Shown one piece after another: positions 1 through 17,875 of a stretch of 64,000 nt of DNA. Below the pieces are notes generated by a model. That model saw nothing but the letters and a program-made list of their open reading frames with translations, searched no databases and was not told the DNA's origin. Every line of letters begins with the position of its first letter. Position 1 is the first letter of the stretch. The position numbers and the translations under genes were made by a program. This DNA comes from Muribaculaceae bacterium Isolate-036 (Harlan) (GTDB lineage Bacteria > Bacteroidota > Bacteroidia > Bacteroidales > Muribaculaceae), in the NCBI GenBank assembly GCA_003833075.1, contig RIAY01000007.1, forward strand, positions 1 through 64,000, in the 5' to 3' direction.

Positions 1-111
1 AGTTTTCATGAGAAAAAGCGTCCAAACTTTTCCTTTAAATTACTAATTTTCAGGGACTTTTGCAAATTTAATCGACTGAAAATTAAGTGTTTAACAGCAT
101 AAATTTAATTT

Positions 112-552
112 TTGTCATCTACTAAAACAAATATGAAAAAGATTAAGCTCACAGCTGAACAGCAAAAACTGTTCAATGCCAACTTCAATCGAAAGGCTTA
201 TGAAGAGGCAAAAAAGCCTATTCAGGAAGCCATCTCAGGCTCTAAATCCTTTGATGAGTTATGGAGTAAACTTCAGAACCATGAATGTGATGTGGAATAT
301 GAAGATGACTGCACTATTATATCTTGTGAGGTCGAACTTGACAGAAGTCACATGGAAACTGAAGGTGATTATGTCGGAGTTTGTTTCTATATCAAATGGT
401 ATGATGAAGCTGATTCCGGCACGATAAGCAAGGTGGAACTCTATTCTTCAGAAACATCAGGTAACTACCTCGCCGACCACCTTTGCAACATACACCCTGA
501 GACTTGTGAAATCACAGAGTGGGTTTATGATGATATTGATGACAAGCAGTGA
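112..552 (+). CDS. hypothetical acidic protein (146 aa)
   Basis: Long ORF, ATG start, rich in D/E. No motif recognised. Confidence 0.4.
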   Translation: MSSTKTNMKKIKLTAEQQKLFNANFNRKAYEEAKKPIQEAISGSKSFDELWSKLQNHECDVEYEDDCTIISCEVELDRSHMETEGDYVGVCFYIKWYDEADSGTISKVELYSSETSGNYLADHLCNIHPETCEITEWVYDDIDDKQ

Positions 553-571
553 TTATCGTCAATAACCAATA

Positions 572-961
572 ATGAAAAAGAAACAAACCCATGACTCAAC
601 CAGAGTTAAAGGCTTTTACATCAATGAACTAATAAGAGGATTTTTCGGAGATCGTTATGAAGGAAAAGAAATGCTGAAAATCATGGGGCTGCCACCAGAT
701 GCAGTGCCATTCAGTGTTGTGGTCTTTCTCCAGAATCAACGTGTCTTTTGGCAAGATAAAGACGGCAACCGCGTCACAATCTCCTTCAAACTCAAACCCA
801 ATCAACTGGAATGTTTCGGAACTTATCTTAAAAAGAGAAAATCTATAAGATTATTCCGTGAATGGGGAAATCACGAAGATCCTGAAGTAATTGCTCGTCT
901 GGAGTCCGAAGCCATTGGGGACTGTTGTATGAGATGTATCTACGAGAACTTAATAGAATAA
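572..961 (+). CDS. hypothetical protein (129 aa)
   Basis: ORF packed 20 nt after the previous stop on the same strand. Confidence 0.4.
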   Translation: MKKKQTHDSTRVKGFYINELIRGFFGDRYEGKEMLKIMGLPPDAVPFSVVVFLQNQRVFWQDKDGNRVTISFKLKPNQLECFGTYLKKRKSIRLFREWGNHEDPEVIARLESEAIGDCCMRCIYENLIE

Positions 962-962
962 T

Positions 963-1298
963 ATGGGCTGGCTAATATTTGCAGCATACCTTTTTTGTGG
1001 TATAATGTACCATCTGTTCAATCAGATAGAGCAATCGGCACCTGAAGGGAGTCTTGGAAAAAAGATTGCAAAGATAGTAATGTATTCCGTAATGGGCATT
1101 GTAGGTCTTGGAGTAGTAATTTTGGCACTATATGCTATCGGATGGATATGGTACTTTTTCTGTGGAGGATTTCTCATTTTTGAGGATCAACCGTTCTGGG
1201 ATAAGGTCGTATGCGGACTGATGTCTCTCATTTTTCTCGGATTCCTTTTTGGGTTTGTCTTGGTTTGTCTTGGTTGGGATCCGGACAATCGGCGCTAA
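963..1298 (+). CDS. small integral membrane protein (111 aa, 3 hydrophobic segments)
   Basis: Starts 2 nt after the previous stop. Strongly hydrophobic helices. Confidence 0.45.
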   Translation: MGWLIFAAYLFCGIMYHLFNQIEQSAPEGSLGKKIAKIVMYSVMGIVGLGVVILALYAIGWIWYFFCGGFLIFEDQPFWDKVVCGLMSLIFLGFLFGFVLVCLGWDPDNRR

Positions 1299-1403
1299 CT
1301 CAATCAAAATATTGGAGGGATTAACTTTTCTTTACAAATAATGAGAGGTTAATCCCTCTATTATGTTATATCTGATGAAAGCAGTTATACTAATTCATTA
1401 ACG

Positions 1404-1982
1404 ATGAATATTTCAAATGTAAAAGTTTATGACTTGGAAGAGTCAGTAATCGCTTGCCGAAATGCAATGCGACTTTCTTTGCCTGAATATAATCAAGAAG
1501 AGTTTGAAGCAAGTCTCGAAAGGGCAAAGAAGCTCTGTCAGGCGTCTAAAGGCGAGGTAAGGTGCCACGCCAACTTCCGCACTGGTATCCGTGTTAGCTT
1601 TGATATAGAATATCCGAACTACATTTCTCCGGAAATGCAGCGTTACCATTGGTTTGATATTGTGACATCATCTTCAAAGATGCACCGTATCATGCAAATG
1701 GATTTCGATAAATGTTGCAATAAATATGTGACCGAAGCCACGAAAGATCAGATGAAACAACTCGTCCAAGAGTATAACGATGATAAATCTGAGGAGAACT
1801 TTATGCGGGTTCTTTCAAATTGCCCACAAGGTGTTATGCTCTTTATGCGTATTTCCACCAATTATGAGCAGCTTCGGACAATATATCTCCAGCGGAAGAA
1901 CCATAAATTACCTGAGTGGCGGTCATTCTGCCAGTGGATAGAAAGCCTGCCCTATGCTCAAGAACTAATCGTTTGCTCGTGA
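1404..1982 (+). CDS. hypothetical protein (192 aa)
   Basis: Long ORF preceded by an inverted repeat (~1313-1361). Confidence 0.45.
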   Translation: MNISNVKVYDLEESVIACRNAMRLSLPEYNQEEFEASLERAKKLCQASKGEVRCHANFRTGIRVSFDIEYPNYISPEMQRYHWFDIVTSSSKMHRIMQMDFDKCCNKYVTEATKDQMKQLVQEYNDDKSEENFMRVLSNCPQGVMLFMRISTNYEQLRTIYLQRKNHKLPEWRSFCQWIESLPYAQELIVCS

Positions 1983-2067
1983 AATATCAACCATTTATAT
2001 AGACCATATTAAAAGACACTGTAATTTTTTGTAATTTTGCAGTGTCTTTCAGTAACTACCAACCAAT

Positions 2068-2415
2068 ATGAATAGACAAAGGAGAAGTGTTCTTCACGCC
2101 GTTCTTGACGGCTTGGCAAGATTGAGAGACCCGGTTGAAAAGGATGAGGCCCTGATGATTCTTCAGAAAGCTCAATCTGATGTTCAGAAATGTGCCGATG
2201 AAGAGGAAGAAGCTCTTGACAACCGGCCAGAATCGCTCCAGTGGTCTGCGGGCAATGATGCAATGTCAGATAACATATCTGACTTGACTGACGCAAGCGG
2301 AGAGCTGGAAGTTCTTATCGACAAATGCCAGTCGGCCGATAAGTTCTCATACAAATCGGTCAAAGGTGACGTTATTAAGATAGTGAACAAGATCAAACAG
2401 ACTATTCATAGATGA
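2068..2415 (+). CDS. hypothetical acidic protein (115 aa)
   Basis: ORF downstream of a TAnnTTTG-like motif embedded in an inverted repeat (~2010-2052). Confidence 0.4.
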   Translation: MNRQRRSVLHAVLDGLARLRDPVEKDEALMILQKAQSDVQKCADEEEEALDNRPESLQWSAGNDAMSDNISDLTDASGELEVLIDKCQSADKFSYKSVKGDVIKIVNKIKQTIHR

Positions 2416-2855
2416 ATCAGGAACAACTCGCAGATAGAATCAAAGAAGCCACTAATGGAGCTGCCTATACAGGTAGCTTAACATCTTACGCCGTACAGTC
2501 TATAGAGTTAGCAAGAAGTAACTATCCAGTCCAAAATTTAATTTCATTCTGTCAAGATATGAATTTGAAGTTTGTGATGACCGATATGGCGACGGAAGAT
2601 CGCTTCTATCCTGAGTCTGTGCTGGACGTTCACAAGGTGTTGGATTTGCTTATGAAACGATATAAAGTTGATCATAAGTTAGTCTATCGAAAGACTGGTA
2701 TTCATTATACGCCGCCCAAGTCTTTAGATCCTGAAGATATTGAACGTATGAAGGAAGAGGCCGACGGTCGTAAATATGTGATACCGCTTTCGATTAAAAC
2801 CTTATTGGCTGTCTGTGAGGTGATTTATTGCGATTTGACGTTTGACCCTAAGTGA
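2412..2855 (+). CDS. hypothetical protein (147 aa)
   Basis: ATGA overlap with the upstream gene. Confidence 0.45.
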   Translation: MNQEQLADRIKEATNGAAYTGSLTSYAVQSIELARSNYPVQNLISFCQDMNLKFVMTDMATEDRFYPESVLDVHKVLDLLMKRYKVDHKLVYRKTGIHYTPPKSLDPEDIERMKEEADGRKYVIPLSIKTLLAVCEVIYCDLTFDPK

Positions 2856-2886
2856 TGAAAGCAGTGTCATAATTTAATATACGATT

Positions 2887-3183
2887 ATGGCAACAAAAAA
2901 AGAGGTTCTTGAACAATCCCAGAAAGCTATCGCAACCTACTTTCAATTATCAAAGTATTTGTTCGGAGAGGATGCTCCCGAAGATGTGAATGAAATCCCA
3001 CCAGAAAATCCATACTATGAGAGTGCCAAGACAATCTCAGATGAGATGGGGCTGGACTGGGATAATATGTCACACGAGGACAGTATTCGCGTTATGCTCA
3101 ATATGCTTGCTGACGCTTTCTCCGCCATCGAACCGGATGAGCATTATGACGCAGTTCTGACAATTTCTTTTAAGAAGGTGTGA
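2887..3183 (+). CDS. hypothetical very acidic small protein (98 aa)
   Basis: D/E-rich. Possible DNA-mimic type (inference only). Confidence 0.4.
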   Translation: MATKKEVLEQSQKAIATYFQLSKYLFGEDAPEDVNEIPPENPYYESAKTISDEMGLDWDNMSHEDSIRVMLNMLADAFSAIEPDEHYDAVLTISFKKV

Positions 3184-3184
3184 T

Positions 3185-3586
3185 ATGGGGCTGGCCGATA
3201 CAGTTCAATTTACCCTCCGGCCAAAAGATTTGGAGAAGGCGAGTGATATGTTTGGTATAGAGATTGCCTTACTGGAACGTCTCAACGCCCAGAGGCTTCT
3301 TAATGCCACATACATTCGCAATCTCCTCATCAGAGCCGATTATGAAAGACTGACAAGCGGATTGCATTGGTTGGAACATCAGGACAAGAATTATAACTTC
3401 CCTGAAGTGCTGAGAGCGTTGTCACGAGAATACAATATCAGTCAGCAAAATCTCAAAGACATTCTTCATGGGAGGAATGAATCACTCTTGTTCTGTAACC
3501 GGTGCGGCAAACGCATTGGTAAGTCTCAGTATAACAGAACAAAAGGTTTTTGTTCCAACTGCTTTGCAGATACATTGGAACTATAA
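3185..3586 (+). CDS. hypothetical protein with C-terminal CxxC...CxxC zinc ribbon (133 aa)
   Basis: C-terminal CNRCG...CSNC motif. Starts 2 nt after the previous stop. Confidence 0.45.
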   Translation: MGLADTVQFTLRPKDLEKASDMFGIEIALLERLNAQRLLNATYIRNLLIRADYERLTSGLHWLEHQDKNYNFPEVLRALSREYNISQQNLKDILHGRNESLLFCNRCGKRIGKSQYNRTKGFCSNCFADTLEL

Positions 3587-3606
3587 TTGATTAAAAGCAG
3601 TTTGAT

Positions 3607-3882
3607 ATGAACACAACATTCAAAATCCAGCAAATATGGCAATATTTAGGGGTTCAGGATGATGAAATCCTAATCATTCGACACTATAATAAGTCCGATG
3701 ATAAAGATGAGTTCTTGATCGCTGAAGTAACCCAAGATGGTCTAAAAATCACAACGGCTCCAACTATGCCTGAACTTAGGGCCGACAGACCGTTCCAGAT
3801 AATTCAACAGCGTGATTCATCCGGGAAATTCATAATCCCATCAGTAACTCAGCTAATCAATGATAAGGTTAGCGATTATTAA
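3607..3882 (+). CDS. hypothetical protein (91 aa)
   Basis: ORF followed by a palindrome and a terminator. Confidence 0.4.
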   Translation: MNTTFKIQQIWQYLGVQDDEILIIRHYNKSDDKDEFLIAEVTQDGLKITTAPTMPELRADRPFQIIQQRDSSGKFIIPSVTQLINDKVSDY

Positions 3883-3902
3883 CCAACACCAATAGGCTTT
3901 TT

Positions 3903-3922
3903 AAGATTTGTTAACAAATCTT
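3903..3922. promoter_or_regulatory. perfect 20-bp palindrome AAGATTTGTTAACAAATCTT (candidate operator or binding site)
   Basis: Seen directly in the sequence, between two operon-like gene blocks. Confidence 0.35.
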
Positions 3923-3928
3923 TCTGAA

Positions 3929-3966
3929 GGCTCTGCACTATTACTCGGTGCAGGGCCTTTTTGTAT
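3929..3966 (+). terminator. rho-independent terminator-like hairpin (GGCTCTGCAC...GTGCAGGGCC followed by TTTTT)
   Basis: GC stem plus a T-run after gene 3607..3882. Confidence 0.45.
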
Positions 3967-3992
3967 GCCCTAATTGATAAAAGCAATATAAC

Positions 3993-4487
3993 ATGGCACA
4001 GAGAATTAAAACCAATATCAAGTTCTACAAAGGGCTTGACAACGTTGCAGATAAGCTCTACGGTTTTGTCGCCAAGTCCAATGGAAGTTGGAGGGGGTGC
4101 CGCGAAACTGAGAGTAAGAAAAAAATCGTGTTTGTAGATACGGCTATTGCTAAAGACATCATCCCCAATACGCTTTACAGTTGCTCACTGGTTCCTATGC
4201 GTAATGAAGGAGGCTTCATAGCCAAGTCTGCAACCATAATCAAATTCCCCGGCACGGTAGCTACAGTATGCCGTAAAAATGTCTTTCTGGTGCGAATAAC
4301 ATTCGGCAACAAGGAATACATCTACGATCCTTCCAGTAAGGAAAAGCGCAAAAACGACATCAAATCTATCGCAGACATTCTTCGGAGCCGGCACGACCTC
4401 GAAAATGCGATAAGTGTGGCTGAAGATTTTATTGATAACGCCTGTATAGTCAAAAGACTCTACGAACAATCTCAATCCAATGTTTGA
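3993..4487 (+). CDS. hypothetical protein (164 aa)
   Basis: ORF that starts a new gene block after the terminator. Confidence 0.45.
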   Translation: MAQRIKTNIKFYKGLDNVADKLYGFVAKSNGSWRGCRETESKKKIVFVDTAIAKDIIPNTLYSCSLVPMRNEGGFIAKSATIIKFPGTVATVCRKNVFLVRITFGNKEYIYDPSSKEKRKNDIKSIADILRSRHDLENAISVAEDFIDNACIVKRLYEQSQSNV

Positions 4488-5184
4488 AGAAACCATGTCA
4501 GGTGACGAGCTGCTGAATGAGTATCGCTTAGACCTTCCTGAAATTCAGGCCAAAACTCTGCGCTATGATAAGTCAGATTATGTGACCCGATATTTATGGA
4601 AACATCACAAGCAGCCCACTGTCATAATGACCAAGATATTTGACTCATCTCGTGGCAATGCCTATTTGGGAATATTGGTCTATTTTCAAACTGGTATCGG
4701 AAAGACTAAAAAATGGGATTGGTCATCTTTCCATATCGGACTGATGAATATCAACAAGGGTGTATCAGCTATTGCTTTTTATGCAGAGAGCAAGCAGGCT
4801 ATTAAGTTCAATCCTCATTTCTTTCAACGTTACAAGGAACGCTTTATCGAAGTATGTGACTGGCAGACCAGGAGCCAACTTGCCACAGCCAAAGACATCA
4901 TTGATGTTATCGGCATATATATGAAACGCAACCTGACTATGACTTGGATTGAGACCAAATCAGTTTTTCGTGATAAAGTTCATATTTTTGGCCCGGTCAA
5001 TGATGGAGTTGCACTACTCCAGTGGAGCAAACATCATAGACTCCTTCAAGCAAACACATTTGTCACAATGGATATGCTTGATGCGAAACAGACTCAAATG
5101 GTAGAGTATGCCAAAATATATTTCTCCCTCTCCAAAGCACAAAGAAAGAAATTCCGTTTCCCGGATTTCATCTTAAATGATTAA
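4480..5184 (+). CDS. hypothetical protein (234 aa)
   Basis: 8-nt overlap with the upstream ORF. Confidence 0.45.
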   Translation: MFEETMSGDELLNEYRLDLPEIQAKTLRYDKSDYVTRYLWKHHKQPTVIMTKIFDSSRGNAYLGILVYFQTGIGKTKKWDWSSFHIGLMNINKGVSAIAFYAESKQAIKFNPHFFQRYKERFIEVCDWQTRSQLATAKDIIDVIGIYMKRNLTMTWIETKSVFRDKVHIFGPVNDGVALLQWSKHHRLLQANTFVTMDMLDAKQTQMVEYAKIYFSLSKAQRKKFRFPDFILND

Positions 5185-5209
5185 CGCAGTGTAAAATAAC
5201 TATCTTGAT

Positions 5210-5605
5210 ATGATAAGTCTCAACGAGGGCATAGCGGTCGATGCAGCCCATTCAATGAAGAATCGCAAGACAGAATTTCAGGGTGTTGACCTAAAAACTG
5301 GTAAAACACTCTTCTATACCGATCTTGGTAATCAGACCATAAATATCGGTGAGTTCCTTGCAATAGTTGAGGCTGTCAAATACATCATCGACCATGACTT
5401 TCAACCTAAAGTCATCTTCTCAGACAGTACGACTGCTATAAGCTGGTTCAAGAATAAACGTACTGCATCCGGCAAGCGAAACGCCAAGTTAATGAAAGCT
5501 GAGATATATCTGAGAGCTATGGCTTATTGGGTAGATGAGATTGAGATAGTAAAATGGGATAATCGTCAATGGGGCGAGATTCCTGCTGACTTTGGTAATA
5601 AATAA
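5210..5605 (+). CDS. RNase H-like (type 1, DEDD) domain protein (131 aa)
   Basis: Motifs VDAA...TNxxGEFLAIVEA...IFSDS...W..N..W..IPAD in RNase HI order. Confidence 0.5.
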   Translation: MISLNEGIAVDAAHSMKNRKTEFQGVDLKTGKTLFYTDLGNQTINIGEFLAIVEAVKYIIDHDFQPKVIFSDSTTAISWFKNKRTASGKRNAKLMKAEIYLRAMAYWVDEIEIVKWDNRQWGEIPADFGNK

Positions 5606-5822
5606 TATGCTCAGAACAATAATTGACTTATACGGTTTAGGAGCCTTGTCAACTCAACAATTATTTGGTTTTCCAAGACAGCCTGAACGAGAAATAATTG
5701 ATGTGGAGTATGAAGATCTTTCAGATCAAGTTGAAAATAATCATCAACTCACAGATAAATCAATCTCTGAAGTTCAACCAGTTTTAATAGCAACGGACTA
5801 TGCTGATACAGATAACAAATAA
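5592..5822 (+). CDS. hypothetical small protein (76 aa)
   Basis: Overlapping ORF in an operon-like arrangement. Weak call. Confidence 0.3.
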   Translation: MVINNMLRTIIDLYGLGALSTQQLFGFPRQPEREIIDVEYEDLSDQVENNHQLTDKSISEVQPVLIATDYADTDNK

Positions 5823-6615
5823 ATGTCACGAGGGCTGCGCCCACTGTATGCAATGCTCTCATCCTCAGGGTAAACACATGGATATGGCCACTTTCAAAAA
5901 CGCCCTGAAATTTGCTCGATTTTTAGGCGTAAGCTCCTACATTATAACCGGAGGAGAGCCAACTGAACATCCTCAGTTCTATGAGTTTTGTGAGACTCTT
6001 AATCGCTTCATCAAAGGTGGTAAAACGGTAGGTGGTTTTACCATAACATCAAACGGCACATGGTTCCCGGAACGTAAAGCCGAAATGGAAAAGCTGGCAA
6101 AACTCGATCACTATGTAGCTATGCAAGTCTATACCAATCCCAAATGGTATAAGGACGCCCCTTTCATAATTGAGCATAAGGATGAGATCGGCGCCATTCC
6201 TAAAGTGATGGTTGACACACACGATATTCAGAGTATGCAGGACTTGGGCCGAGCCAAAACCAATGAGCAAGCTCAAACTGAAATAGCCAATAGCCGTTAT
6301 CACATGTCTTGCTTGAATGGTCATCTGCTATTTAAGCAAACCAGCCCTACCAGAAAGCTCACTGGTCTCGATCTCCAGCCTGGAGTGATGTGTAAGCCTT
6401 GTGTGGATTATAAGGGTGACGTGCATCTTTCAGAATCTAATCTTTGCCCTTCATTCGGCAATGTTAATGATGACTATATGCTTGAAATCTTCAACAATCT
6501 CAGAAATGCCAAACCCTGCTGTCAGTGCGCTCTGGGAAAGAAATTCCTGACTTCCGAGAACATTAAAATACAAGTTGCACGTCACTTATTAGGATTTGAG
6601 GAGCCATCAAAATGA
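5800..6615 (+). CDS. radical SAM protein with a C-terminal Cys cluster (SPASM/twitch-like), 271 aa
   Basis: N-terminal CHEGCAHC (Cx3Cx2C), glycine-rich ITGGEPT, C-terminal CKPC...C...CCQC. Confidence 0.6.
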   Translation: MLIQITNKCHEGCAHCMQCSHPQGKHMDMATFKNALKFARFLGVSSYIITGGEPTEHPQFYEFCETLNRFIKGGKTVGGFTITSNGTWFPERKAEMEKLAKLDHYVAMQVYTNPKWYKDAPFIIEHKDEIGAIPKVMVDTHDIQSMQDLGRAKTNEQAQTEIANSRYHMSCLNGHLLFKQTSPTRKLTGLDLQPGVMCKPCVDYKGDVHLSESNLCPSFGNVNDDYMLEIFNNLRNAKPCCQCALGKKFLTSENIKIQVARHLLGFEEPSK

Positions 6616-6926: not shown

Positions 6927-7171
6927 AGAAACAACTCGTAACCTCCGTAGATATAACCCATGTTTGTCATAACACAGGTGACTATATGGAACTCGTCGCG
7001 CTGGGCGAAGTATTTTATATGCGTAGAACGCGCTTTATGAAGCGCCTTGTGCGTAAAGTCATCCATAAGGTTGAAGTGCCGGTAGACTATTTTACTTCTG
7101 CTGAAGAAGCTAAAGCAGAGGCTCGCCGGCAGATGGATGAGTTTGTGAAAAAGTATTATGCCACTGTTTAA
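6923..7171 (+). CDS. hypothetical small basic protein (82 aa)
   Basis: ATGA overlap with the upstream gene. Confidence 0.35.
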   Translation: MKKQLVTSVDITHVCHNTGDYMELVALGEVFYMRRTRFMKRLVRKVIHKVEVPVDYFTSAEEAKAEARRQMDEFVKKYYATV

Positions 7172-7181
7172 GTAAATTTCA

Positions 7182-7583
7182 ATGAAAGATCATTATGTAT
7201 CGTATCAGCAAGCCATTAAACTTAAAGAATTGGAGCTTAGTGGTGAAGTGACGGGCAAATATGTTGATTGCCCTAATGACCCCACTTTATTTAACGGTAT
7301 GCTATATCAGTCATGGAACTTAGAAAATGATGAAGTTCTGGCACCTCGTCTTGACCAGGCTCAGACATGGCTCCGCGAAGAAAAAGAAATAGATGTACTT
7401 GTATTTAACTGTGCATGTGGCTATGGCTGGGAAATATCCAAAGCAGGTAACAACTTGACGCGCGGTACTACAATTATGCTCTTTGATGAGATGGGCGAGG
7501 ATGAAAATAGCGGAATGTGGTTATCCTATGAGAAAGCCTTATCCGCCGGCATTGATGCAGCTCTTAAAATATTGGAGGATTAA
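7182..7583 (+). CDS. hypothetical protein (133 aa)
   Basis: ORF. Confidence 0.4.
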   Translation: MKDHYVSYQQAIKLKELELSGEVTGKYVDCPNDPTLFNGMLYQSWNLENDEVLAPRLDQAQTWLREEKEIDVLVFNCACGYGWEISKAGNNLTRGTTIMLFDEMGEDENSGMWLSYEKALSAGIDAALKILED

Positions 7584-7585
7584 AG

Positions 7586-7834
7586 ATGAGTAGGAAGAAT
7601 CTTATACTTGCAATGGCAACAATGATGGCTATGGCAGCTGAGTCTCATAATAGGGGTTTATATGAACCTCAAATACCAAGAGTGAGAGATACCCGCAGGA
7701 ATTGTCTTGACACAACCAACATAAAGGTAGTTGATAGTCGTCAGTTGCGCGAATTTTCAATCAAAGGTCATAAGGTAATGGCATTTTCAAAAAAGGATGC
7801 TATTACCCGTCTAAAACATCTGAAAAAGATATGA
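7586..7834 (+). CDS. hypothetical small protein (82 aa)
   Basis: ORF 2 nt after the previous stop. Confidence 0.35.
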   Translation: MSRKNLILAMATMMAMAAESHNRGLYEPQIPRVRDTRRNCLDTTNIKVVDSRQLREFSIKGHKVMAFSKKDAITRLKHLKKI

Positions 7835-8316
7835 GTGTAACGATACAAGGTCGATACGGACAAACAACCATTGTGCATGATCTCTCAGTTCTCGACGATA
7901 TCATAAGAGCTGACAAAAAATTTTATGCTGAATGTGATGCGTTCCATGCAAAAATGATGGAATTGGGCGTAAAGGCATATCGGTGTAATGACGGCTGGAT
8001 AAATAGAGAACATAATATTGTTACTTTTCATCCAGATGATAGAGTTCATGGCTATTATTGGGGGAATCGAGATCTTAAAAGTGGTGATAAGATTTTCATC
8101 GGAAATGCAGGTGATGGAGGCAAATTCGCCTATATAGATTATATGGTGGAAATTACCCCGTATTGTGTTAGATACCACTATATTTTATCTGATGAGATAT
8201 TGGATGCGCAAGGGAATGTTTCAAATCCGAAACTCCAAGCATCTGAAAAACGTCTAAAGAAATTCAAGTTCTTTAGAAATATCGTGAAAAGAATATTCAA
8301 ACGGACAAAAAACTAA
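7831..8316 (+). CDS. hypothetical protein (161 aa)
   Basis: ATGA overlap with the upstream gene. Confidence 0.4.
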   Translation: MSVTIQGRYGQTTIVHDLSVLDDIIRADKKFYAECDAFHAKMMELGVKAYRCNDGWINREHNIVTFHPDDRVHGYYWGNRDLKSGDKIFIGNAGDGGKFAYIDYMVEITPYCVRYHYILSDEILDAQGNVSNPKLQASEKRLKKFKFFRNIVKRIFKRTKN

Positions 8317-8328
8317 AGAGATCCAATT

Positions 8329-8793
8329 ATGGCTAAAGATACTCAACCCAAGCCCTATGATGGAATGCTTCTTTTCAGACAAAATCATCCATATACAAAA
8401 GAAGAGTTTGAGGCTATGAAACAGAATTTCTATAAATACTGTGGTCCACTTTTCCCAGCCAAAAATGAACCTACATCTTTTGTTATGCTTGGATATGTAT
8501 CACGGGGTTTATCAGGAGAACTAAAGCTGACCCATAGCCATCCCAGTATGTCTGATAATTTCAACTTATTGCCTCCAGACTTATTCCCGGAGGTTCAATA
8601 TGGTTCCGAGCCACTTTGCGTTGAAATCAAACTCACGCCAGTACCAAATATCAAAGCCTCCGAAGTCCCCAAAGAACAGACAGAGTTTCAGGAAAGGATT
8701 TTGTGCAATCCTGACCGGCCAACCGATGAGGAAATCTGGAGAGATACAACTGATGAAGTGCCATTAAACGATAGTGAAGAAAATGAAGCGTGA
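8329..8793 (+). CDS. hypothetical protein (154 aa)
   Basis: ORF. Confidence 0.4.
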   Translation: MAKDTQPKPYDGMLLFRQNHPYTKEEFEAMKQNFYKYCGPLFPAKNEPTSFVMLGYVSRGLSGELKLTHSHPSMSDNFNLLPPDLFPEVQYGSEPLCVEIKLTPVPNIKASEVPKEQTEFQERILCNPDRPTDEEIWRDTTDEVPLNDSEENEA

Positions 8794-9013
8794 CAATAAC
8801 AGAATATCCTTAACTCTTAAAGAAGCTGATGAGGTAAGAGAACATCTTGAAACTCTTTATGCAATGGAAGGGACACTTGATGAAGATTTCAATCGTGAGT
8901 GTCATCGAGCAGGATTCTTTGCGCGAAAAATATGTGAACTGATACATGGGCATCGACATCCCCAGTGGGAAACTCCAGAGCCTCCAGAACCAAAATATAC
9001 TCCAACAATATAA
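8774..9013 (+). CDS. hypothetical small protein (79 aa)
   Basis: Overlapping ORF. Weak call. Confidence 0.3.
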   Translation: MKKMKRDNNRISLTLKEADEVREHLETLYAMEGTLDEDFNRECHRAGFFARKICELIHGHRHPQWETPEPPEPKYTPTI

Positions 9014-10932
9014 AGTTACTACCAATGCAAAATTATGAGCTAAAACCAGTTGTTTCCAGTATTCTTCAATTTCTTGAAGAAATGACTGGCTGCAATTTGA
9101 AAGAATTGACAGAACAGTCATCTTTCAAAGGGACATTGGGCACATATATAAATGCTAAAGATCTCTTCGCAATCAATAATAATATTCAGAGTGGAGAGTA
9201 TGGCATTGCCTATGAAAAGGAAGTAACATTCTTAAAAAACTTCTTATCTGAGATAAGACTCTCTCATAATTTTGATAGGCTTATCGGGGAATGTAAAGAA
9301 TTAGGCTCTATTCTTTTAGAAGCTCATACTATTTTCAAAGATTACATGATATGGGCCGCCGAAGAGAAAAAGTATTTTCGGGAATATCTTTTTAATAATG
9401 AACTCCTGAAAGAAGAAGAAAAAACTGATGACTTTCTCAATAAGTTTAGTTATGAATGGGTTGATGCAGCCAAGAAATCTGTTCAATCCAAGTTACTCCA
9501 GTTATATAATTTTGGTAATGCTTCCAATACCACTCTCAGCATAGGCCACACAACGCCATATTCTATTTCTGACGCACTTTGTATCTCAGATGATATAAAC
9601 CTATGTATTGGGACAAATAAAGGCCAGGAAGAGGATATATGCTATGCTCGTCTGGCTTTGAAAATTGACCGAGAATTGGCTTTCTCTCACTTCATTATAA
9701 CAATCCAATACAAGGATAAGATATGGTTGGTTACAGACAAACCGACTATGCCCAATCCCCAGTTCCGCGAAAACACCAGAAACCCTTATAGATGGCGTGA
9801 AGAGGCTTTTGACAATATTCAGCTTCCTTATGGCCTATTGGATCACATTGAGGAATGGCGTAAAGAGTCAAAAGCCGTAGCCAAAGAAAACAGTTCTGAA
9901 GTTTACATAAAGTCCATACAGGATTTTCTACCCCCGGCCAGTAAGATTTTGATCAAACTCATAATTGAGGAATTGATATACAATGTCATTCCCATGAAAC
10001 AATTTGATCTGACGATGATTGGTTTGGCTGGAGAAAATATTAAACTCTTGGGTGCCGGTAATACTTTAGAAAATGTTGATGATGTTTTCATAAACATCAA
10101 TAAAGAAGCCAATGAAGAACGATTAAATAACATTATCTATCCAACCTCCACTGAGCTTATCAAAATTGATCCTACCAAGGCTGTGACGCAATATGTAGAG
10201 GCTGGAGAACTATGTACTATAGACGAAATACGCAAAATTGCTATATGGTCTCAAAAGGAAGAACAGCGTAGAAACAAACAAAAACTACTGGATGAAGCCT
10301 ATACTCGTGAAAGAATGAGAGCTGATGAGGAAAAGTTAAATAAAGTGTTATTTGACAATGTTGAAAACCTTTATGAAGTGGTATTCTCAGCAGACATGGT
10401 TTTTATGTGTATAGAAGATGAAAACGCCAGAACCTTTGGATCCTCAAATGGAAATGCCATCATTCAAATCTGCGATACCAGCCTTTTTAAGTCATCATAT
10501 TCCAAACAGTATCTCACAAACTATCATATCAATAAGTTTAGAGATGAGTGGCATGTGGCAAATTGCGTAATATGTGATTGCGAGAATCCAGTCAATCTTC
10601 AGTTAAAAATCTACTCCTATAAAGAACTTTGTGGGATTCTTAAAGTTAAACGTGAACAACTGCCATACACATTCCAGAATTATACCGCGAATCTCTATGT
10701 GCCTTATTACGGCAATGTGATTTTGGATAATGTGAATCCGGAGTATAAGGTACTTGACCCTCGAAGTAGAGAACTCCAACATTACTATTCAATAGGTATT
10801 CCCTTGAATAAACGCTGTTTCAATAAACTTCGGAAGAAATACTGGAAGTATGAGAAAAGTCTTGTGATAATCAACTATACAAAAGGAACCATAAAAATCC
10901 AAGAATATGGAAAAGAAAATAAAAACTACTGA
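8965..10932 (+). CDS. large hypothetical protein (up to 655 aa; ATG at 9025 is an alternative start)
   Basis: Longest ORF of the block. No motif recognised. Confidence 0.5.
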   Translation: MGNSRASRTKIYSNNIKLLPMQNYELKPVVSSILQFLEEMTGCNLKELTEQSSFKGTLGTYINAKDLFAINNNIQSGEYGIAYEKEVTFLKNFLSEIRLSHNFDRLIGECKELGSILLEAHTIFKDYMIWAAEEKKYFREYLFNNELLKEEEKTDDFLNKFSYEWVDAAKKSVQSKLLQLYNFGNASNTTLSIGHTTPYSISDALCISDDINLCIGTNKGQEEDICYARLALKIDRELAFSHFIITIQYKDKIWLVTDKPTMPNPQFRENTRNPYRWREEAFDNIQLPYGLLDHIEEWRKESKAVAKENSSEVYIKSIQDFLPPASKILIKLIIEELIYNVIPMKQFDLTMIGLAGENIKLLGAGNTLENVDDVFININKEANEERLNNIIYPTSTELIKIDPTKAVTQYVEAGELCTIDEIRKIAIWSQKEEQRRNKQKLLDEAYTRERMRADEEKLNKVLFDNVENLYEVVFSADMVFMCIEDENARTFGSSNGNAIIQICDTSLFKSSYSKQYLTNYHINKFRDEWHVANCVICDCENPVNLQLKIYSYKELCGILKVKREQLPYTFQNYTANLYVPYYGNVILDNVNPEYKVLDPRSRELQHYYSIGIPLNKRCFNKLRKKYWKYEKSLVIINYTKGTIKIQEYGKENKNY

Positions 10933-11239
10933 CAAGGCTCAAACCTATGCTCAATCCGTAATTGACAATTTTGGGACCAACGGTGTGCCTATTGGCATAA
11001 AAGACATAAAAAAGATGCTTGCAGAAGCATATCTGGCCGGTCTTTCCGATCAATGGAGAGACACTTCAGACACGCCTCCAATAGATGAAGATGTGCTGGT
11101 TGATTACCCATATGAACACGGATATGCGGTTGCATACTATGATGGGAAGGATTGGTACCTTACCGAGACTGGAAGACTGTTACATCCGACACGCTGGATG
11201 CCTATTCCACCACATAATAAAACTGAGGGGAATGAGTAA
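10907..11239 (+). CDS. hypothetical protein (110 aa)
   Basis: ORF. Confidence 0.4.
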   Translation: MEKKIKTTDKAQTYAQSVIDNFGTNGVPIGIKDIKKMLAEAYLAGLSDQWRDTSDTPPIDEDVLVDYPYEHGYAVAYYDGKDWYLTETGRLLHPTRWMPIPPHNKTEGNE

Positions 11240-11402
11240 CCGTAGATTTCGCAAATATCCTCAGACCATTATTCTTCGATGTCCTTGCTGCCAAGAAGTA
11301 AAATATGCACTTTGCCATTTTGACTCCACCGGAGAAGCTGAATATTGCTGTCAATGTGGTCACATCAGTAAAATTAAACTCGCTAAATTGAATAACAAAT
11401 GA
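11232..11402 (+). CDS. small zinc-ribbon protein (~56 aa; the ORF track extends it to 11085, which I judge unlikely)
   Basis: RCPCCQ...CCQCGH motif. An ATG at 11232 overlaps the stop of the upstream gene. Confidence 0.35.
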   Translation: MSNRRFRKYPQTIILRCPCCQEVKYALCHFDSTGEAEYCCQCGHISKIKLAKLNNK

Positions 11403-11590
11403 AAAAGAAACATATACAATATTGGGTGTATTTCTTTTCTACCGCTATAGTTTTCTTTTGGCTTGGTTCCCTTTGTGGAGCTGGATTAGCATATCATTCT
11501 GCCGAAAAACAATCTGAAAAATATCGTGTGGAAATGGTAAAGGATTCACTTTATTTTGAATACACTCATCATCTCTCTAACTCCAAATAA
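11399..11590 (+). CDS. small membrane protein (63 aa)
   Basis: Hydrophobic N-terminal helix. ATGA overlap. Confidence 0.35.
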   Translation: MKKKHIQYWVYFFSTAIVFFWLGSLCGAGLAYHSAEKQSEKYRVEMVKDSLYFEYTHHLSNSK

Positions 11591-11597
11591 GCCAATG

Positions 11598-11828
11598 AAA
11601 TTCCAAGCAACCAAATGGCCAGTCACTATCACTTTAGATGTGGCCGACGATTACACTGAAGGTGTCGACAAAGAAAACTTGAAAGAAGAATCTCCCGAAA
11701 AGCTTATACAGCTACAAGAGTTAGCTGATATGCTCGCAGATGCACTCATTAAAGCAAAAGGCCAGATTCTCGCTCAACAGGAAGCTAAACGTAAACAAAC
11801 AACTCAAAATAATGGCACGGAAAGCTAA
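11598..11828 (+). CDS. hypothetical small protein (start trimmed to the first ATG after the upstream stop)
   Basis: ORF. Confidence 0.3.
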   Translation, partial: KFQATKWPVTITLDVADDYTEGVDKENLKEESPEKLIQLQELADMLADALIKAKGQILAQQEAKRKQTTQNNGTES

Positions 11829-12228
11829 ACTCATTTCTACCGGAGAAATAGTGGAGGTGTATGCTGATATGGATTATCATGGCAATACTACATGGCTTGA
11901 TACATCAACAAAGACTGAATATTATCCTTCTGAATTAGAATTTCTACCAGAAGATTCAAAGCCTATATCTCCAGTAGTTTCTCTTTCCCAGTTCACTGAC
12001 GAAGAGTTGAGAAGTGAATTAAAACGTCGAGAAAAAGAACGTCGTTCACAATTCCCTCCCAATATCCGGTGCCATGATTGCAAGCATTGCGTGGAAGGAC
12101 TCGCGTTCAAACATCAGTACATTCCAACAACCGTTTGTCGAATGAATCCTAAGCCATCTCAGGGGCCGGATAGATACTATTCAACAGTATGCTCTCTTAG
12201 AGCGTGTGATAAATTTGAAACCAAATAA
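11812..12228 (+). CDS. Cys-rich hypothetical protein (~138 aa from the internal ATG)
   Basis: CHDCKHC...C...C motifs. Confidence 0.4.
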   Translation: MARKAKLISTGEIVEVYADMDYHGNTTWLDTSTKTEYYPSELEFLPEDSKPISPVVSLSQFTDEELRSELKRREKERRSQFPPNIRCHDCKHCVEGLAFKHQYIPTTVCRMNPKPSQGPDRYYSTVCSLRACDKFETK

Positions 12229-12230
12229 CT

Positions 12231-12488
12231 ATGGCAGCAAAAGATTATGTGTTCTGTAAAGCGGCATTGACTGGTCACATTTATCTGACAAAGAAAATAA
12301 AGTCTAAAGATGTGATGAGTCAGGATAGAAGGCTGGTAGAGGATCATGAGGCAATCGGATGTTTTGAAGCATATCTTAGACGATATTGTGAAGAGAATGG
12401 TACCGATACACTCAATGTCACCAACTCCAAAGGAGAAGTTCTTTTTACAGCAACTCTAAAAAAGCAAGAAGATGAAACTGAAAACTAA
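12231..12488 (+). CDS. hypothetical small protein (85 aa)
   Basis: ORF 3 nt after the previous stop. Confidence 0.35.
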   Translation: MAAKDYVFCKAALTGHIYLTKKIKSKDVMSQDRRLVEDHEAIGCFEAYLRRYCEENGTDTLNVTNSKGEVLFTATLKKQEDETEN

Positions 12489-12801
12489 AATCGCTCAAAT
12501 TCTGAGAAGATGGGCTGAAAAGTTAGAGCCTATCTTTCCATACGATGTGAAGCATATCCCATATCTAAAAGAAGAGAGGCACGATATCCAGAAAATGATG
12601 TCGCAGCACTCAATACCCAGATATGTATATGATCGAGATCCAAACCGCATGAATAGGCTGGTTCGTGAAGATATTGCTTCTGGGATAGCCAAGGGATTAG
12701 ATGCTAATGGCCTCATTAAGATAACGATTGAGCCTACTCCAGAAAATGTGAATTACATCGGAGAACTATATATTATTGACTTTCATAAGGATTCAATATA
12801 A
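12472..12801 (+). CDS. hypothetical protein (109 aa)
   Basis: ORF. Confidence 0.4.
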   Translation: MKLKTKIAQILRRWAEKLEPIFPYDVKHIPYLKEERHDIQKMMSQHSIPRYVYDRDPNRMNRLVREDIASGIAKGLDANGLIKITIEPTPENVNYIGELYIIDFHKDSI

Positions 12802-12850
12802 TCAAAATCTCAATGCCTTGGGCGGCTTAATAAAACCCACAAGAAACAAT

Positions 12851-13309
12851 ATGGAGATAATCAAAATCGAAAAATTCCCATCAATCGAAGGCGTGGCTAA
12901 AGACTTCGCCAAAAGAGCAGTTGAAGGCTGTAAGGGCAGTCTTGATTTAGAAAAGTGCGAAAAGCAGATCGCATTTGCTGTTGACTATGGTCACGAAAAT
13001 GCTTGGCAGCTGCTTGACACTATGGACTTCGGCGATGCAATCAGAGCACTCAAAGCCGGTGCTAAAGTGGCCCGTAAGGGCTGGAACGGTAAGGGGATGT
13101 TCCTCTGGCTCAAACCAGCAGCCACCGTCAAATCCGAATGGTGTAAAGATCCTATGCTGAAAAAGCTGGCCGATGACAATGGCGGCACTATCGAGGCTGC
13201 TGGCACTATCTGCATGTTCACTGCCCAGCACCAGATACTCACCGGCTGGCTTGCTTCCCAGACTGATGTGCTTGCTGAGGACTGGGTAATCGTTTCAGAA
13301 GCTGAATGA
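12851..13309 (+). CDS. DUF2829-like protein (phage-associated family), ~152 aa
   Basis: Motif KVARKGWNGKGMFLWL, which I recall as typical of the DUF2829 family. Confidence 0.45.
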   Translation: MEIIKIEKFPSIEGVAKDFAKRAVEGCKGSLDLEKCEKQIAFAVDYGHENAWQLLDTMDFGDAIRALKAGAKVARKGWNGKGMFLWLKPAATVKSEWCKDPMLKKLADDNGGTIEAAGTICMFTAQHQILTGWLASQTDVLAEDWVIVSEAE

Positions 13310-13334
13310 AAATCCGTCTGACAGGTTCTTCACA

Positions 13335-13718
13335 ATGATGACCAGTAAAAAGATGTATTTTCGCAACATGGAGACTGGAGAAGAAACCGAAATTATCAAT
13401 GGCACTACTAAAATGGAGTGCTGTGATAACGATACTTCTTCAGTCAATATTTGCAATTCATATTACTTTGAGTGCGATGTCAAATTGCCTTTGATGAATC
13501 AGGCAGCAAAAGACTTATTCTTTGGTAATCCAGCGTGGAAAACGGCTTGTCGGCTTGCTGATAAACTGAATGGTCTCATTGAGGAGTATCATGCACCCGG
13601 CAACACAAGAAAAGTGCGAAGAGCCGTCCAGCGTCAATTTGATAAGACATTCAAAATCTTCCGCAACCACTGTCAGGATTGTAATATACAATACACTTTC
13701 CAACGACCGAACAAATGA
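13335..13718 (+). CDS. Cys-rich hypothetical protein (127 aa)
   Basis: ORF. It is the last gene before the integrase. Confidence 0.4.
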   Translation: MMTSKKMYFRNMETGEETEIINGTTKMECCDNDTSSVNICNSYYFECDVKLPLMNQAAKDLFFGNPAWKTACRLADKLNGLIEEYHAPGNTRKVRRAVQRQFDKTFKIFRNHCQDCNIQYTFQRPNK

Positions 13719-13755
13719 GAAATGGGGGTAGTCATTAATTGACCGCCCCCATTCT

Positions 13756-15228: not shown

Positions 15229-15241
15229 GTGGTGCCACCAG
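15229..15241. repeat. 13-bp direct repeat GTGGTGCCACCAG, identical to the 3' end of tRNA-Phe at 30891-30903. Candidate att core and junction between blocks A and B.
   Basis: Exact 13/13 match seen in the sequence. Confidence 0.55.
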
Positions 15242-17873: not shown

Positions 17874-17875
17874 AA

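What the first reader, a model, noticed from the sequence alone, without database searches (positions are those of the whole stretch)
1..13718. About 31 co-directional, overlapping small ORFs with almost no recognizable functions: candidate novel accessory, phage-satellite or anti-defence gene block
Every gene in 13.7 kb is on the same strand. Many are coupled by ATGA or 2-8 nt overlaps, and most encode proteins of 60-200 aa. I could not assign any of them to a housekeeping, capsid, terminase or replication family. The only recognizable folds are RNase H-like, radical SAM, DUF2829-like (phage-associated), several zinc ribbons, a small membrane protein and three very acidic proteins (112..552, 2068..2415, 2887..3183) that could be DNA-mimic-type anti-restriction proteins. 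This architecture resembles phage early regions or the leading regions of conjugative elements where anti-defence genes accumulate. Block A ends with its own integrase.
Basis: inference. Interest (0 to 1): 0.55.

Follow-up and report, generated by a model that had tools for sequence, protein, structure and literature searches.

The report
Accessory gene arm of a prophage
The 31 small same-strand genes are the last 13.7 kb of a roughly 30-kb arm of mostly unknown genes in a large temperate phage integrated at a tRNA-Phe gene of a mouse-gut Muribaculaceae bacterium. The arm carries one recognisable counter-defence gene (a Tad2 signal sponge), so it is a real but fairly ordinary kind of phage region.

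Summary
Positions 133-13718 carry 31 genes, all on the + strand, 96% coding, with 12 overlaps. dN/dS is 0.04-0.18 wherever diverged copies exist.

The block is neither a satellite nor part of a conjugative element. On near-identical public contigs the same array continues upstream through PcfK, PcfJ and a reverse transcriptase. Downstream it ends at the same integrase, 223 nt before a 12-nt tRNA-Phe core (window 15230-15241). In one 94-kb contig that junction leads on to a large terminase and an endolysin.

Related elements (72-82% nt identity) show a roughly 2-kb non-coding region ahead of the arm, then a Mu-like portal, MuF and protease module. The isolated temperate Bacteroides phage BS-TP1 (111.7 kb) has the same layout, but only 6 of the 31 window proteins match it.

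Functions recognised:
- Tad2/DUF2829 sponge, with ligand-contact residues conserved
- RNase HI, with an intact DEDD motif
- a compact radical SAM enzyme with four extra invariant cysteines
- a ThyX-fold protein that lacks the ThyX motif

About 26 genes remain orphans, including a 635-aa protein with no fold match. Whole-gene cassettes differ between otherwise 99% identical copies.

Verdict: a new member of a known kind, of moderate-to-low interest. The anti-defence reading is shown for one gene and inferred for the rest.

The parts
133..13718 (+). 31 co-directional small genes: the distal 13.7 kb of the + strand accessory arm of a prophage. The arm continues upstream beyond position 1.
963..1298 (+). 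111-aa hydrophobic, probably membrane, protein
   Evidence: maximum Kyte-Doolittle 19-residue window 2.62; weak DUF6338 hit below cut-off
1299..1403 (.). intergenic gap with an 11-bp-stem hairpin (GGAGGGATTAAC...GTTAATCCCTC)
   Evidence: sequence; terminator-like hits at 1344-1359
1404..1982 (+). 192-aa protein with a ThyX-like fold but without the ThyX sequence motif; flanked by hairpin-bearing gaps on both sides
   Evidence: phrog_6721 E 6e-47; 2950 clusters; AF2 pLDDT 85; the 50 best listed Foldseek PDB hits are all ThyX, TM 0.43-0.58; no Pfam Thy1 hit and no profile hit to ThyX chains
1983..2067 (.). intergenic gap with a hairpin (AAAGACACTG...CAGTGTCTTT) enclosing a TAnnTTTG motif at 2032
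3883..3992 (.). intergenic gap with two hairpins, the second followed by a T-run (terminator-like)
3185..5605 (+). sub-module partly shared with phage BS-TP1 (gp106, gp108, gp109): 133-aa zinc-ribbon protein, 91-aa protein, 164-aa and 234-aa basic proteins, then RNase H
   Evidence: tblastn against BS-TP1; charges
5210..5605 (+). RNase HI-type ribonuclease H with the four catalytic carboxylates conserved (D11, E48, D71, D127)
   Evidence: PDB B. halodurans RNase H E 5e-18 with alignment; NF046109 E 9e-24
5607..5822 (+). 71-aa acidic, fast-evolving ORF overlapping the radical SAM start
5800..6615 (+). compact (271 aa) radical SAM enzyme: CX3CX2C plus four further invariant Cys (C198, C216, C240, C243)
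   Evidence: Pfam E 3e-11; alignment invariants; profile hits to YydG, PqqE, CteB, SkfB and viperin cores; at least 308 family clusters at E<=1e-30
7182..7834 (+). two-gene cassette (133 aa acidic, 82 aa basic) replaced by other genes in otherwise near-identical copies
9025..10932 (+). 635-aa lineage-restricted protein of unknown fold
10907..12488 (+). six-gene variable stretch, wholly or partly replaced in some copies; includes a 56-aa double-CxxC zinc-ribbon protein (11232-11402) and a 63-aa hydrophobic protein (11399-11590)
12851..13309 (+). Tad2/DUF2829-family protein (152 aa from ATG 12851; the ORF opens at TTG 12776)
   Evidence: PF11195 E 5e-23; PDB SptTad2 2e-20, HgmTad2/AcrIIA7 2e-18, SPO1 Tad2 2e-13 with alignments; ligand residues from 10.1101/2023.11.15.567273
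13719..13755 (.). GC-rich hairpin (ATGGGGG...CCCCCAT) between the convergent last arm gene and the integrase
13756..15018 (-). tyrosine integrase of the prophage (SAM_5 plus catalytic domain)
   Evidence: identical protein indexed in 1023 blocks of the collection
15230..15241 (.). right attachment core TGGTGCCACCAG (complement of the tRNA-Phe 3' end); similarity to all other copies of the phage stops at 15241
15242..30891 (.). separate integrative mobilizable element (own integrase, DUF5906, DUF3408, NikA-like, relaxase) inserted in tandem between the prophage and tRNA-Phe; not part of the block
30891..30964 (-). tRNA-Phe(GAA), the integration target; it carries the second copy of the 12-nt core at 30892-30903

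Best explanation
The block is the att-proximal end of the long rightward accessory arm of a large temperate tailed phage (about 94 kb or more) lysogenised at tRNA-Phe in a Muribaculaceae genome. In this phage group one strand carries replication, tail and head genes. The other strand carries a few nucleotide-metabolism and recombinase genes, a non-coding region of about 1.5-2 kb, and then an array of small genes that runs to the integrase and attP. That array is about 60 annotated genes in BS-TP1 and an estimated 70-plus in this lineage. Shown here: the phage context, the att site, the coding reality of the genes, cassette-wise turnover between near-identical copies, and the family assignment of four genes. 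Inferred: the arm is read away from the non-coding region in several short transcription units separated by hairpins. It would supply dispensable, fast-exchanging functions used on infection or induction, namely host takeover, nucleotide or nucleic-acid chemistry (RNase HI, ThyX-fold protein, radical SAM enzyme) and counter-defence. The one mechanistically interpretable counter-defence gene is Tad2. In characterised homologues Tad2 forms a tetramer that sequesters the Thoeris signal gcADPR, and in Bacteroides-phage homologues also cGG/cGAMP of CBASS, so the host effector is never switched on.
For: Same contig, same array: L001 and L048 overlap exactly on a 94-kb, 315x contig that is 98-99.5% identical to the window. 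On that contig PcfK, PcfJ, the RT and the block are followed by the integrase, the att core, a 368-aa gene, Terminase_3, DUF6549 and an amidase endolysin. In five other contigs the identical integrase end abuts tRNA-Phe with different host flanks. The window has the core twice. Related loci (72-82% nt) extend the small-gene array to about 18 kb upstream of the window start. Next upstream comes a 2.2-kb non-coding stretch, followed by DUF4406, dUTPase, a small recombinase and DUF4494, and beyond those a Mu-type portal, MuF, ClpP/Mu-I protease and DUF2586. BS-TP1 has TerL 50% identical over 99% of its length and the same architecture, including the RT, DUF2829, radical SAM and RNase H in its arm and an integrase at the arm's end. 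It was isolated as a temperate phage (PMC12694917). Tad2. No defence-system model matches. Cassette replacement at 7160-7830 and 11033-12549 lies inside flanks that are 99% or more identical.
Against: The window itself holds no structural gene, so phage context rests on near-identical and related contigs. The head-module and non-coding-region evidence comes from relatives at only 72-82% nt identity, not from the same phage. Expression timing and promoter positions are not shown, and the sigma-70 scan is uninformative for Bacteroidota. Only 1 of 31 genes belongs to a known anti-defence family. About 26 genes have no assignable function, so 'counter-defence and takeover' as the arm's main role is inference by analogy. 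A location next to att would also fit lysogenic-conversion genes.
Confidence: 0.8

Rival explanations
1. It is a lysogenic-conversion or prophage-encoded defence island. On this reading the arm is expressed from the resident prophage and protects or benefits the host, for example by superinfection exclusion or abortive infection, rather than serving the phage's lytic programme.
For: The arm lies next to the integrase and att site, where morons accumulate (established knowledge). The upstream part of the arm carries a non-DGR reverse transcriptase followed by a conserved non-coding gap, a gene type often used in defence. Internal hairpins split the arm into small autonomous units.
Against: No PADLOC defence model matches any of the 31 products. 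The one assignable immune-related gene, Tad2, is a counter-defence gene. RNase H, ThyX-fold and radical SAM genes fit phage nucleic-acid metabolism better.
Confidence: 0.15
2. It is a phage satellite (PICI/P4-like): a roughly 15-kb integrase-bearing island without structural genes that hijacks a helper phage.
For: Within the window the block plus integrase is about 15 kb, has no capsid or terminase gene, and is tRNA-integrated.
Against: The array continues at least 8.6 kb upstream on near-identical contigs and about 18 kb in relatives. It is contiguous with TerL and an endolysin across attP on one contig. BS-TP1 virions carry the equivalent arm in a 111.7-kb genome. No satellite hallmark gene (primase-helicase, capsid-size redirection, small terminase) was found.
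Confidence: 0.02
3. It is the leading or distal region of a Bacteroidota conjugative transposon, with anti-defence genes that enter the recipient first.
For: PcfK and PcfJ domains, typical of conjugative elements, lie upstream in the same array. A relaxase and a NikA-like gene lie 10 kb downstream. The uniform orientation resembles plasmid leading regions (own knowledge).
Against: The relaxase belongs to a separate element bounded by its own att repeats, 15242-30891. The sequence fetched from relatives, reaching about 37 kb upstream, holds phage morphogenesis genes and no type IV secretion or coupling protein. The junction beyond the integrase leads to a terminase in the excised form.
Confidence: 0.02

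Closest known systems
Bacteroides phage BS-TP1 (PQ571274.1; Liu et al. 2025, PMC12694917)
   Same: Large temperate Bacteroidales phage. TerL is 50% identical over 99% of its length. It has the same two-strand layout, the same Mu-type portal, MuF and protease, and DUF4494, dUTPase and a small recombinase ahead of a non-coding gap. A roughly 32-kb + strand array of about 60 small genes (gp58-gp118) ends at a convergent integrase followed by TerL. Its arm also holds an RT with a non-coding gap, DUF2829, radical SAM and RNase H.
   Different: Only 6 of the 31 window proteins have a detectable homologue there, at 23-63% identity, and the integrase is 30% identical. The host family differs (Bacteroidaceae versus Muribaculaceae). 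BS-TP1 is 111.7 kb, whereas the near-identical contig here is 94 kb. BS-TP1 carries RtcB, a ParA/Mrp-like gene and a cytidylyltransferase in its arm that are absent from the window. The published paper does not discuss the arm.
Tad2 / HgmTad2 (AcrIIA7) sponge proteins (Yirmiya et al. 10.1101/2023.05.01.538930; Li et al. 10.1101/2023.11.15.567273)
   Same: DUF2829 domain. The gcADPR-contact residues W21, N22, G23, M76, W87, L88, S90, T92 and D93 of HgmTad2 are all identical in the window protein. HgmTad2 is also encoded by Bacteroides phages.
   Different: About 50-75 extra N-terminal residues. The insertion between beta2 and beta5 that binds cyclic dinucleotides is about 11 residues shorter than in HgmTad2 and 5 shorter than in SptTad2. 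The CDN contacts R31 and N85 are K and T here. No binding or phage-rescue data exist.
Anti-defence islands and early or accessory regions of phages, and leading regions of conjugative plasmids
   Same: Uniformly oriented, tightly packed small genes of unknown function with rapid cassette turnover and at least one counter-defence gene (own knowledge of the literature).
   Different: The arm is far larger, about a third of the phage genome. Only one known anti-defence family is present. It sits on a phage, not a conjugative element, and early expression is not shown.
Flavin-dependent thymidylate synthase ThyX
   Same: The predicted fold of the 1404-1982 product matches ThyX structures exclusively (the 50 best listed hits, probability 1.0, TM 0.43-0.58).
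   Different: The ThyX signature RHRxxSxxxxSxRY is replaced by QRYHWFDIVTSSSKMHR. There is no Pfam Thy1 hit, and the family profile does not find ThyX chains by sequence. Thymidylate synthase activity should therefore not be assumed.

Membership tests
BS-TP1-like temperate Bacteroidales phages | Homologous large terminase | tested here: met
   TerL from L048 (same phage lineage, 99% nt identity to the window across the integrase end) is 49.9% identical over 99% of BS-TP1 gp123. The next best phage hits cover 44% or less.
BS-TP1-like temperate Bacteroidales phages | Mu-type portal, MuF and protease head module divergent from DUF4494, dUTPase and small recombinase genes | tested here: met
   Found in IMG/VR relatives L015 and L021 and annotated in BS-TP1 gp41-gp51. 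Shown only in relatives at 72-82% nt identity, not on the window's own lineage.
BS-TP1-like temperate Bacteroidales phages | Long + strand small-gene arm ending at a convergent integrase, with attP and then TerL beyond it | tested here: met
   Window 133-15241; L001 and L048 are contiguous; BS-TP1 gp58-gp123.
BS-TP1-like temperate Bacteroidales phages | Shared gene content of the arm | tested here: inconclusive
   6 of 31 products have tblastn hits at 23-63% identity. The architecture is conserved but the content is largely not.
Tad2 (DUF2829) anti-Thoeris/anti-CBASS sponges | DUF2829/Tad2-like domain above the family threshold | tested here: met
   PF11195 81.9 bits against a cut-off of 25, full-length profile 1-73. 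Hits solved Tad2 proteins at E 2e-20 to 2e-13.
Tad2 (DUF2829) anti-Thoeris/anti-CBASS sponges | gcADPR-binding residues | tested here: met
   In the alignment, HgmTad2 W21, N22, G23, M76, W87, L88, S90, T92 and D93 (listed) are identical in the query. A78 is T and V84 is L.
Tad2 (DUF2829) anti-Thoeris/anti-CBASS sponges | Long beta2-beta5 insertion with cyclic-dinucleotide contacts (R31, S47, F70, N85) | tested here: inconclusive
   An insertion is present but shorter. R31 is K and N85 is T; S47 and F70 cannot be placed reliably.
Tad2 (DUF2829) anti-Thoeris/anti-CBASS sponges | Tetramer that sequesters the signal and rescues phage from Thoeris | not testable with these tools
   Needs biochemistry and infection assays.
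RNase HI | RNase H domain with the DEDD catalytic carboxylates | tested here: met
   E 5e-18 to B. halodurans RNase H. Query D11, E48, D71 and D127 align with its conserved vD, gEflaiv, sDs and aDyg positions. Identification of these as D71/E109/D132/D192 is from my own knowledge.
Radical SAM superfamily (SPASM/twitch-type maturases) | CX3CX2C cluster motif and radical SAM core | tested here: met
   C9, C13 and C16 are invariant in 29 sequences. PF04055 44.4 bits against a cut-off of 29.5.
Radical SAM superfamily (SPASM/twitch-type maturases) | C-terminal auxiliary Fe-S cluster domain and a peptide substrate | tested here: inconclusive
   Four further invariant Cys (C198, C216, C240, C243) are present, but there is no SPASM Pfam hit. 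Profile hits to YydG, PqqE, CteB and SkfB cover only core residues 1-100. The upstream 71-aa ORF is not a conserved neighbour; in BS-TP1 and L058 the neighbour is a ParA/Mrp-like ATPase.
ThyX (flavin-dependent thymidylate synthase) | ThyX fold | tested here: met
   AF2 pLDDT 85; the 50 best listed Foldseek PDB hits are all ThyX.
ThyX (flavin-dependent thymidylate synthase) | ThyX signature motif RHRxxSxxxxSxRY and Pfam Thy1 membership | tested here: not met
   The motif region reads QRYHWFDIVTSSSKMHR. There is no Thy1 hit at E<0.1 and no ThyX chain found with the family profile at E<10. The motif itself is from my own knowledge.
Phage satellites (PICI/P4-like) | Self-contained integrative island of about 10-20 kb lacking morphogenesis genes | tested here: not met
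   The array continues upstream and is contiguous with terminase, endolysin and head genes.
Conjugative element leading region | Location next to oriT and relaxase on the same transferable unit carrying a T4SS | tested here: not met
   The relaxase lies in a different element, 15242-30891. No tra genes are in the sequence fetched from relatives, which reaches about 37 kb upstream.
DNA-mimic anti-restriction proteins (Ocr, ArdA) | Family HMM match or extreme, DNA-like negative surface | tested here: not met
   No Pfam hit at E<=1 for the acidic ORFs. Charge density is -0.08 to -0.13 per residue. Structures were not modelled, so a convergent mimic is not excluded.

The most novel reading that the evidence does not exclude
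About a third of the genome of this widespread group of 94-112-kb temperate Bacteroidales phages is a dedicated, rapidly shuffling counter-defence and host-takeover arm. On this reading most of the roughly 26 orphan genes in the window are inhibitors or subverters of Bacteroidales immune systems by mechanisms not yet described. These would include the 635-aa orphan, the ThyX-fold protein without the ThyX motif, the compact radical SAM enzyme and the five acidic proteins.
Probability: 0.25. Interest if true: 0.6.

Novelty: new member of a known kind. Interest (0 to 1): 0.3.

Why it matters
Temperate phages of gut Bacteroidales are abundant and poorly annotated. The integrase and the ThyX-fold protein of this phage are each indexed in more than a thousand blocks of the public assembly collection. 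Placing the block in a defined phage, with a defined att site and an isolated relative, turns 31 anonymous ORFs into a tractable list of candidate accessory and counter-defence genes. One member, Tad2, can be tested at once. Cassette-swap points mark where new candidates enter. The result is useful for mining, but it does not change how such regions are understood.

Tried and rejected
- Megablast of the block against the phage and plasmid collections found nothing.
- Exact look-up of the first ORF from TTG 112 found nothing because the start was wrong.
- Pfam, PHROG and NCBIfam scans of all ORFs, first as linker-joined concatenates, left most ORFs unassigned. GS linkers gave spurious Serglycin hits and poly-P linkers gave spurious PRIMA1 hits. 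Ten ORFs rescanned singly at E<=1 gave nothing further.
- PADLOC gave no defence system.
- Rfam on the block, on the non-coding gap after the RT and on the 2.2-kb upstream non-coding region gave nothing above noise. The only hit scored 30.9 bits against a gathering score of 128.
- The ThyX-like family profile against PDB sequences found no ThyX.
- The idea that the 71-aa ORF and the radical SAM enzyme form a RiPP pair was dropped. The small ORF is not a conserved neighbour in distant family members, and scans of eight distant family members, including one 532-aa protein, found no domain other than the radical SAM core.
- My first working idea, a CTnDOT-like conjugative transposon based on PcfK and PcfJ, was dropped once the upstream walk reached phage head genes.
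- A search for a long direct repeat linking the integrase end to tRNA-Phe missed the 12-nt core. The core was found by comparing junctions across contigs.
- The sigma-70 promoter and terminator scan gave fewer promoter-like sites than the shuffles and terminator-like sites at the shuffled expectation, and it is not suited to Bacteroidota.

Full report
**Observation.** The + strand of window 133-13718 carries 31 consecutive genes and the - strand none of comparable length. I refined the starts using gene calls on public contigs that are 99-100% identical. With those starts the stretch is 96.2% coding and the median product is 127 aa. Twelve junctions overlap, five of them by 4 nt, and thirteen gaps are 25 nt or less. 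Wherever a diverged copy exists, dN/dS is 0.04-0.18, which was measurable for 13 ORFs. The ORFs are therefore real genes under purifying selection.

Three gaps of 85-110 nt (1299-1403, 1983-2067, 3883-3992) and the 37-nt gap before the integrase each contain a hairpin. The array is therefore several short units, not a single operon. GC content is 36-43%, against about 50% in the host-like right half of the window.

**What can be assigned.** I scanned every product against Pfam, PHROGs, NCBIfam and PDB sequences.
- **Tad2/DUF2829** (12776/12851-13309): PF11195 at E 5e-23; SptTad2 2e-20, HgmTad2/AcrIIA7 2e-18 and SPO1 Tad2 2e-13.
- **RNase HI** (5210-5605): E 5e-18 to B. halodurans RNase H, with all four catalytic carboxylate positions aligned.
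- **Radical SAM enzyme** (5800-6615): PF04055 at E 3e-11.
- **PHROG families of unknown function:** phrog_6721 for 1404-1982 (6e-47), phrog_4068 for 2068-2415 and phrog_28241 for 12231-12488.

PADLOC finds no defence system and Rfam finds nothing credible. About 26 of the 31 products have no family.

**Context: a phage, not a satellite or a conjugative element.** The exact 1404-1982 protein is indexed in 1436 blocks of the public assembly collection. Seven contigs align to the window at 83-99.98% nt identity. One of them is the complete genome CP039396.1, where the gene is annotated in Duncaniella dubosii. Upstream of the window the same-strand array continues through PcfK, PcfJ, a 423-aa reverse transcriptase and further small genes.

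Downstream, the identical integrase is indexed in 1023 blocks. Similarity between all copies stops at window 15241, right after TGGTGCCACCAG. In five contigs the sequence then runs into tRNA-Phe, followed by different host genes. In the window, the same 12-mer recurs at 30892-30903 inside the intact tRNA-Phe. The 15.65 kb between the two copies carries its own integrase, DUF5906, DUF3408, a NikA-like gene and a relaxase. It is a second element inserted in tandem.

In contig NODE_252 (94 kb, 315x coverage) the junction leads to a 368-aa gene, a Terminase_3 large terminase, DUF6549 and an amidase endolysin. The two loci fetched from that contig overlap exactly, so PcfK, the arm, the integrase, attP and the terminase are one molecule.

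I also walked upstream through related elements at 72-82% nt identity. The small-gene array extends to about 18 kb left of the window start. It is preceded by about 2.2 kb of non-coding DNA, then DUF4406, dUTPase, a small tyrosine recombinase and DUF4494. On the other strand lie a Mu-type portal, MuF, a ClpP/Mu-I protease and DUF2586.

**Closest described relative.** The terminase is 49.9% identical over 99% of its length to that of Bacteroides phage BS-TP1, which is 111,694 bp. BS-TP1 was isolated as a temperate phage (PMC12694917). Its annotation shows the same architecture:
- replication, DGR, tail and head genes on one strand;
- DUF4494, dUTPase, a ligase and a small integrase on the other;
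- a 1.5-kb gap, then gp58-gp118, about 32 kb of small + strand genes;
- a convergent integrase (gp119) at the end of the arm, and beyond it the terminase (gp123) and an endolysin.

The BS-TP1 arm includes a Lar-like protein, a second RT followed by a 1.35-kb gap, DUF2829, RtcB, a ParA/Mrp-like ATPase, a radical SAM enzyme and RNase H. Only 6 of the 31 window products have a tblastn match there: RNase H at 63%, and the radical SAM enzyme, Tad2, the 164-aa protein and two others at 23-36%. The layout is conserved while the content turns over.

**Turnover.** Among copies that are 99% or more identical elsewhere, whole-gene cassettes are replaced at 7160-7830 and 11033-12549. One variant (L049) carries an HU-like gene beside Tad2. 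The 71-aa ORF at 5607-5822 is 54-58% identical between variants whose neighbouring RNase H is 95-98% identical.

**Individual genes examined further.**
- **Tad2.** The residues of HgmTad2 that contact gcADPR (W21, N22, G23, M76, W87, L88, S90, T92, D93) are listed in 10.1101/2023.11.15.567273. All are identical in the alignment. The cyclic-dinucleotide insertion is shorter and two of its contacts differ. Related contigs call the gene from ATG 12851, giving 152 aa.
- **1404-1982.** This belongs to a large family of 2950 clusters, with homologues in Clostridioides and Fusobacterium phages. The AlphaFold model (pLDDT 85) matches only ThyX structures, with TM 0.43-0.58. The ThyX motif is absent, and neither Pfam nor a family profile links it to ThyX by sequence. 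I call it ThyX-fold with unknown activity.
- **Radical SAM enzyme.** The family is compact (250-290 aa) with at least 308 clusters at E<=1e-30. Its invariant cysteines are C9, C13 and C16 plus C198, C216, C240 and C243. The nearest solved relatives are peptide-modifying enzymes and viperins, but only over the core. In BS-TP1 and in a distant 104-kb contig it follows a ParA/Mrp-like ATPase.
- **635-aa protein.** Its family has only 28 clusters, the model is half-confident, and there is no informative fold match.
- **Acidic proteins.** Five products carry net charges of -9 to -17. None hits an anti-restriction family. DNA mimicry is untested.

**Explanation.** The phage identity, the att site, the coding status, the turnover and the four family assignments are shown. 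The following is inferred.
- The arm is transcribed away from the upstream non-coding region in several units.
- It supplies dispensable functions used on infection or induction: nucleic-acid and nucleotide chemistry, host takeover and counter-defence.
- Tad2 acts as a signal sponge against Thoeris and possibly CBASS.

The main rival is that the arm is expressed in the lysogen as a conversion or defence island. That remains possible for part of it (about 0.15). The satellite and conjugative-leading-region readings are contradicted by the contiguity and att evidence.

**Comparison and novelty.** This is a new member of a known kind: the accessory, anti-defence-bearing arm of a temperate phage, in a phage group that already has one isolated representative. 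The arm itself has not been described in that paper, and most of its genes are orphans. The architecture and the likely biology are familiar. Interest is 0.3. The most novel reading not excluded is that most of the arm consists of undescribed counter-defence genes. I give that a probability of about 0.25 and an interest of 0.6 if true.

Noticed in passing
window 15242-30891: A second integrative, mobilizable element sits in tandem between the prophage end and tRNA-Phe. It is flanked by the same 12-nt core (15230-15241 and 30892-30903). It carries its own tyrosine integrase (15438-16949), a Schlafen/AlbA_2 plus HATPase_c_4 protein (17876-19558), DUF5906 (21441-22670), DUF3408, a NikA-like gene and a MobA/VirD2 relaxase (24498-25967), plus a UDG-family gene on the - strand.
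   Followed up: partly
L001:5137-7190 (about 3.5 kb to 1.4 kb upstream of the window start); BS-TP1 79351-81963: A 420-423-aa reverse transcriptase sits inside the accessory arm and is followed by a conserved non-coding gap of about 0.8-1.35 kb. BS-TP1 has this in addition to its DGR reverse transcriptase. No Rfam family matches the gap. It could be a retron-like or DRT-like RT with a non-coding RNA carried by the phage.
   Followed up: partly
L015:7750-9900 (relatives, about 18-20 kb upstream of the window start): About 2.2 kb of non-coding DNA precedes the first gene of the arm. It has poly-A/G-rich stretches, repeated GTGAAAC motifs and a GC-rich, structured-looking 3' part. No Rfam hit. 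It is a candidate regulatory region, origin or RNA gene. BS-TP1 has a 1.5-kb gap at the same place.
   Followed up: partly
L001:2849-4567: PcfK (PF14058) and PcfJ (PF14284) domains, normally annotated on conjugative elements, are encoded within the phage arm.
   Followed up: no
L049 and L052: Two contigs carry the identical integrase end joined to non-tRNA sequence: inside an Rnf gene cluster, and next to DNA methylase and PAPS-reductase genes. Both junctions come after the same GGTGCCACCAGG core, which suggests secondary integration sites or further tandem elements.
   Followed up: no
window 43861-58810 (- strand): Two very large ORFs (2079 and 2084 aa) flank a 746-aa ORF in the host-like, roughly 45-51% GC part of the window. 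They were not examined.
   Followed up: no
window 5607-5822: A 71-aa acidic ORF between RNase H and the radical SAM gene evolves much faster than its neighbours: 54-58% against 95-98% amino-acid identity in the same pair of variants.
   Followed up: partly
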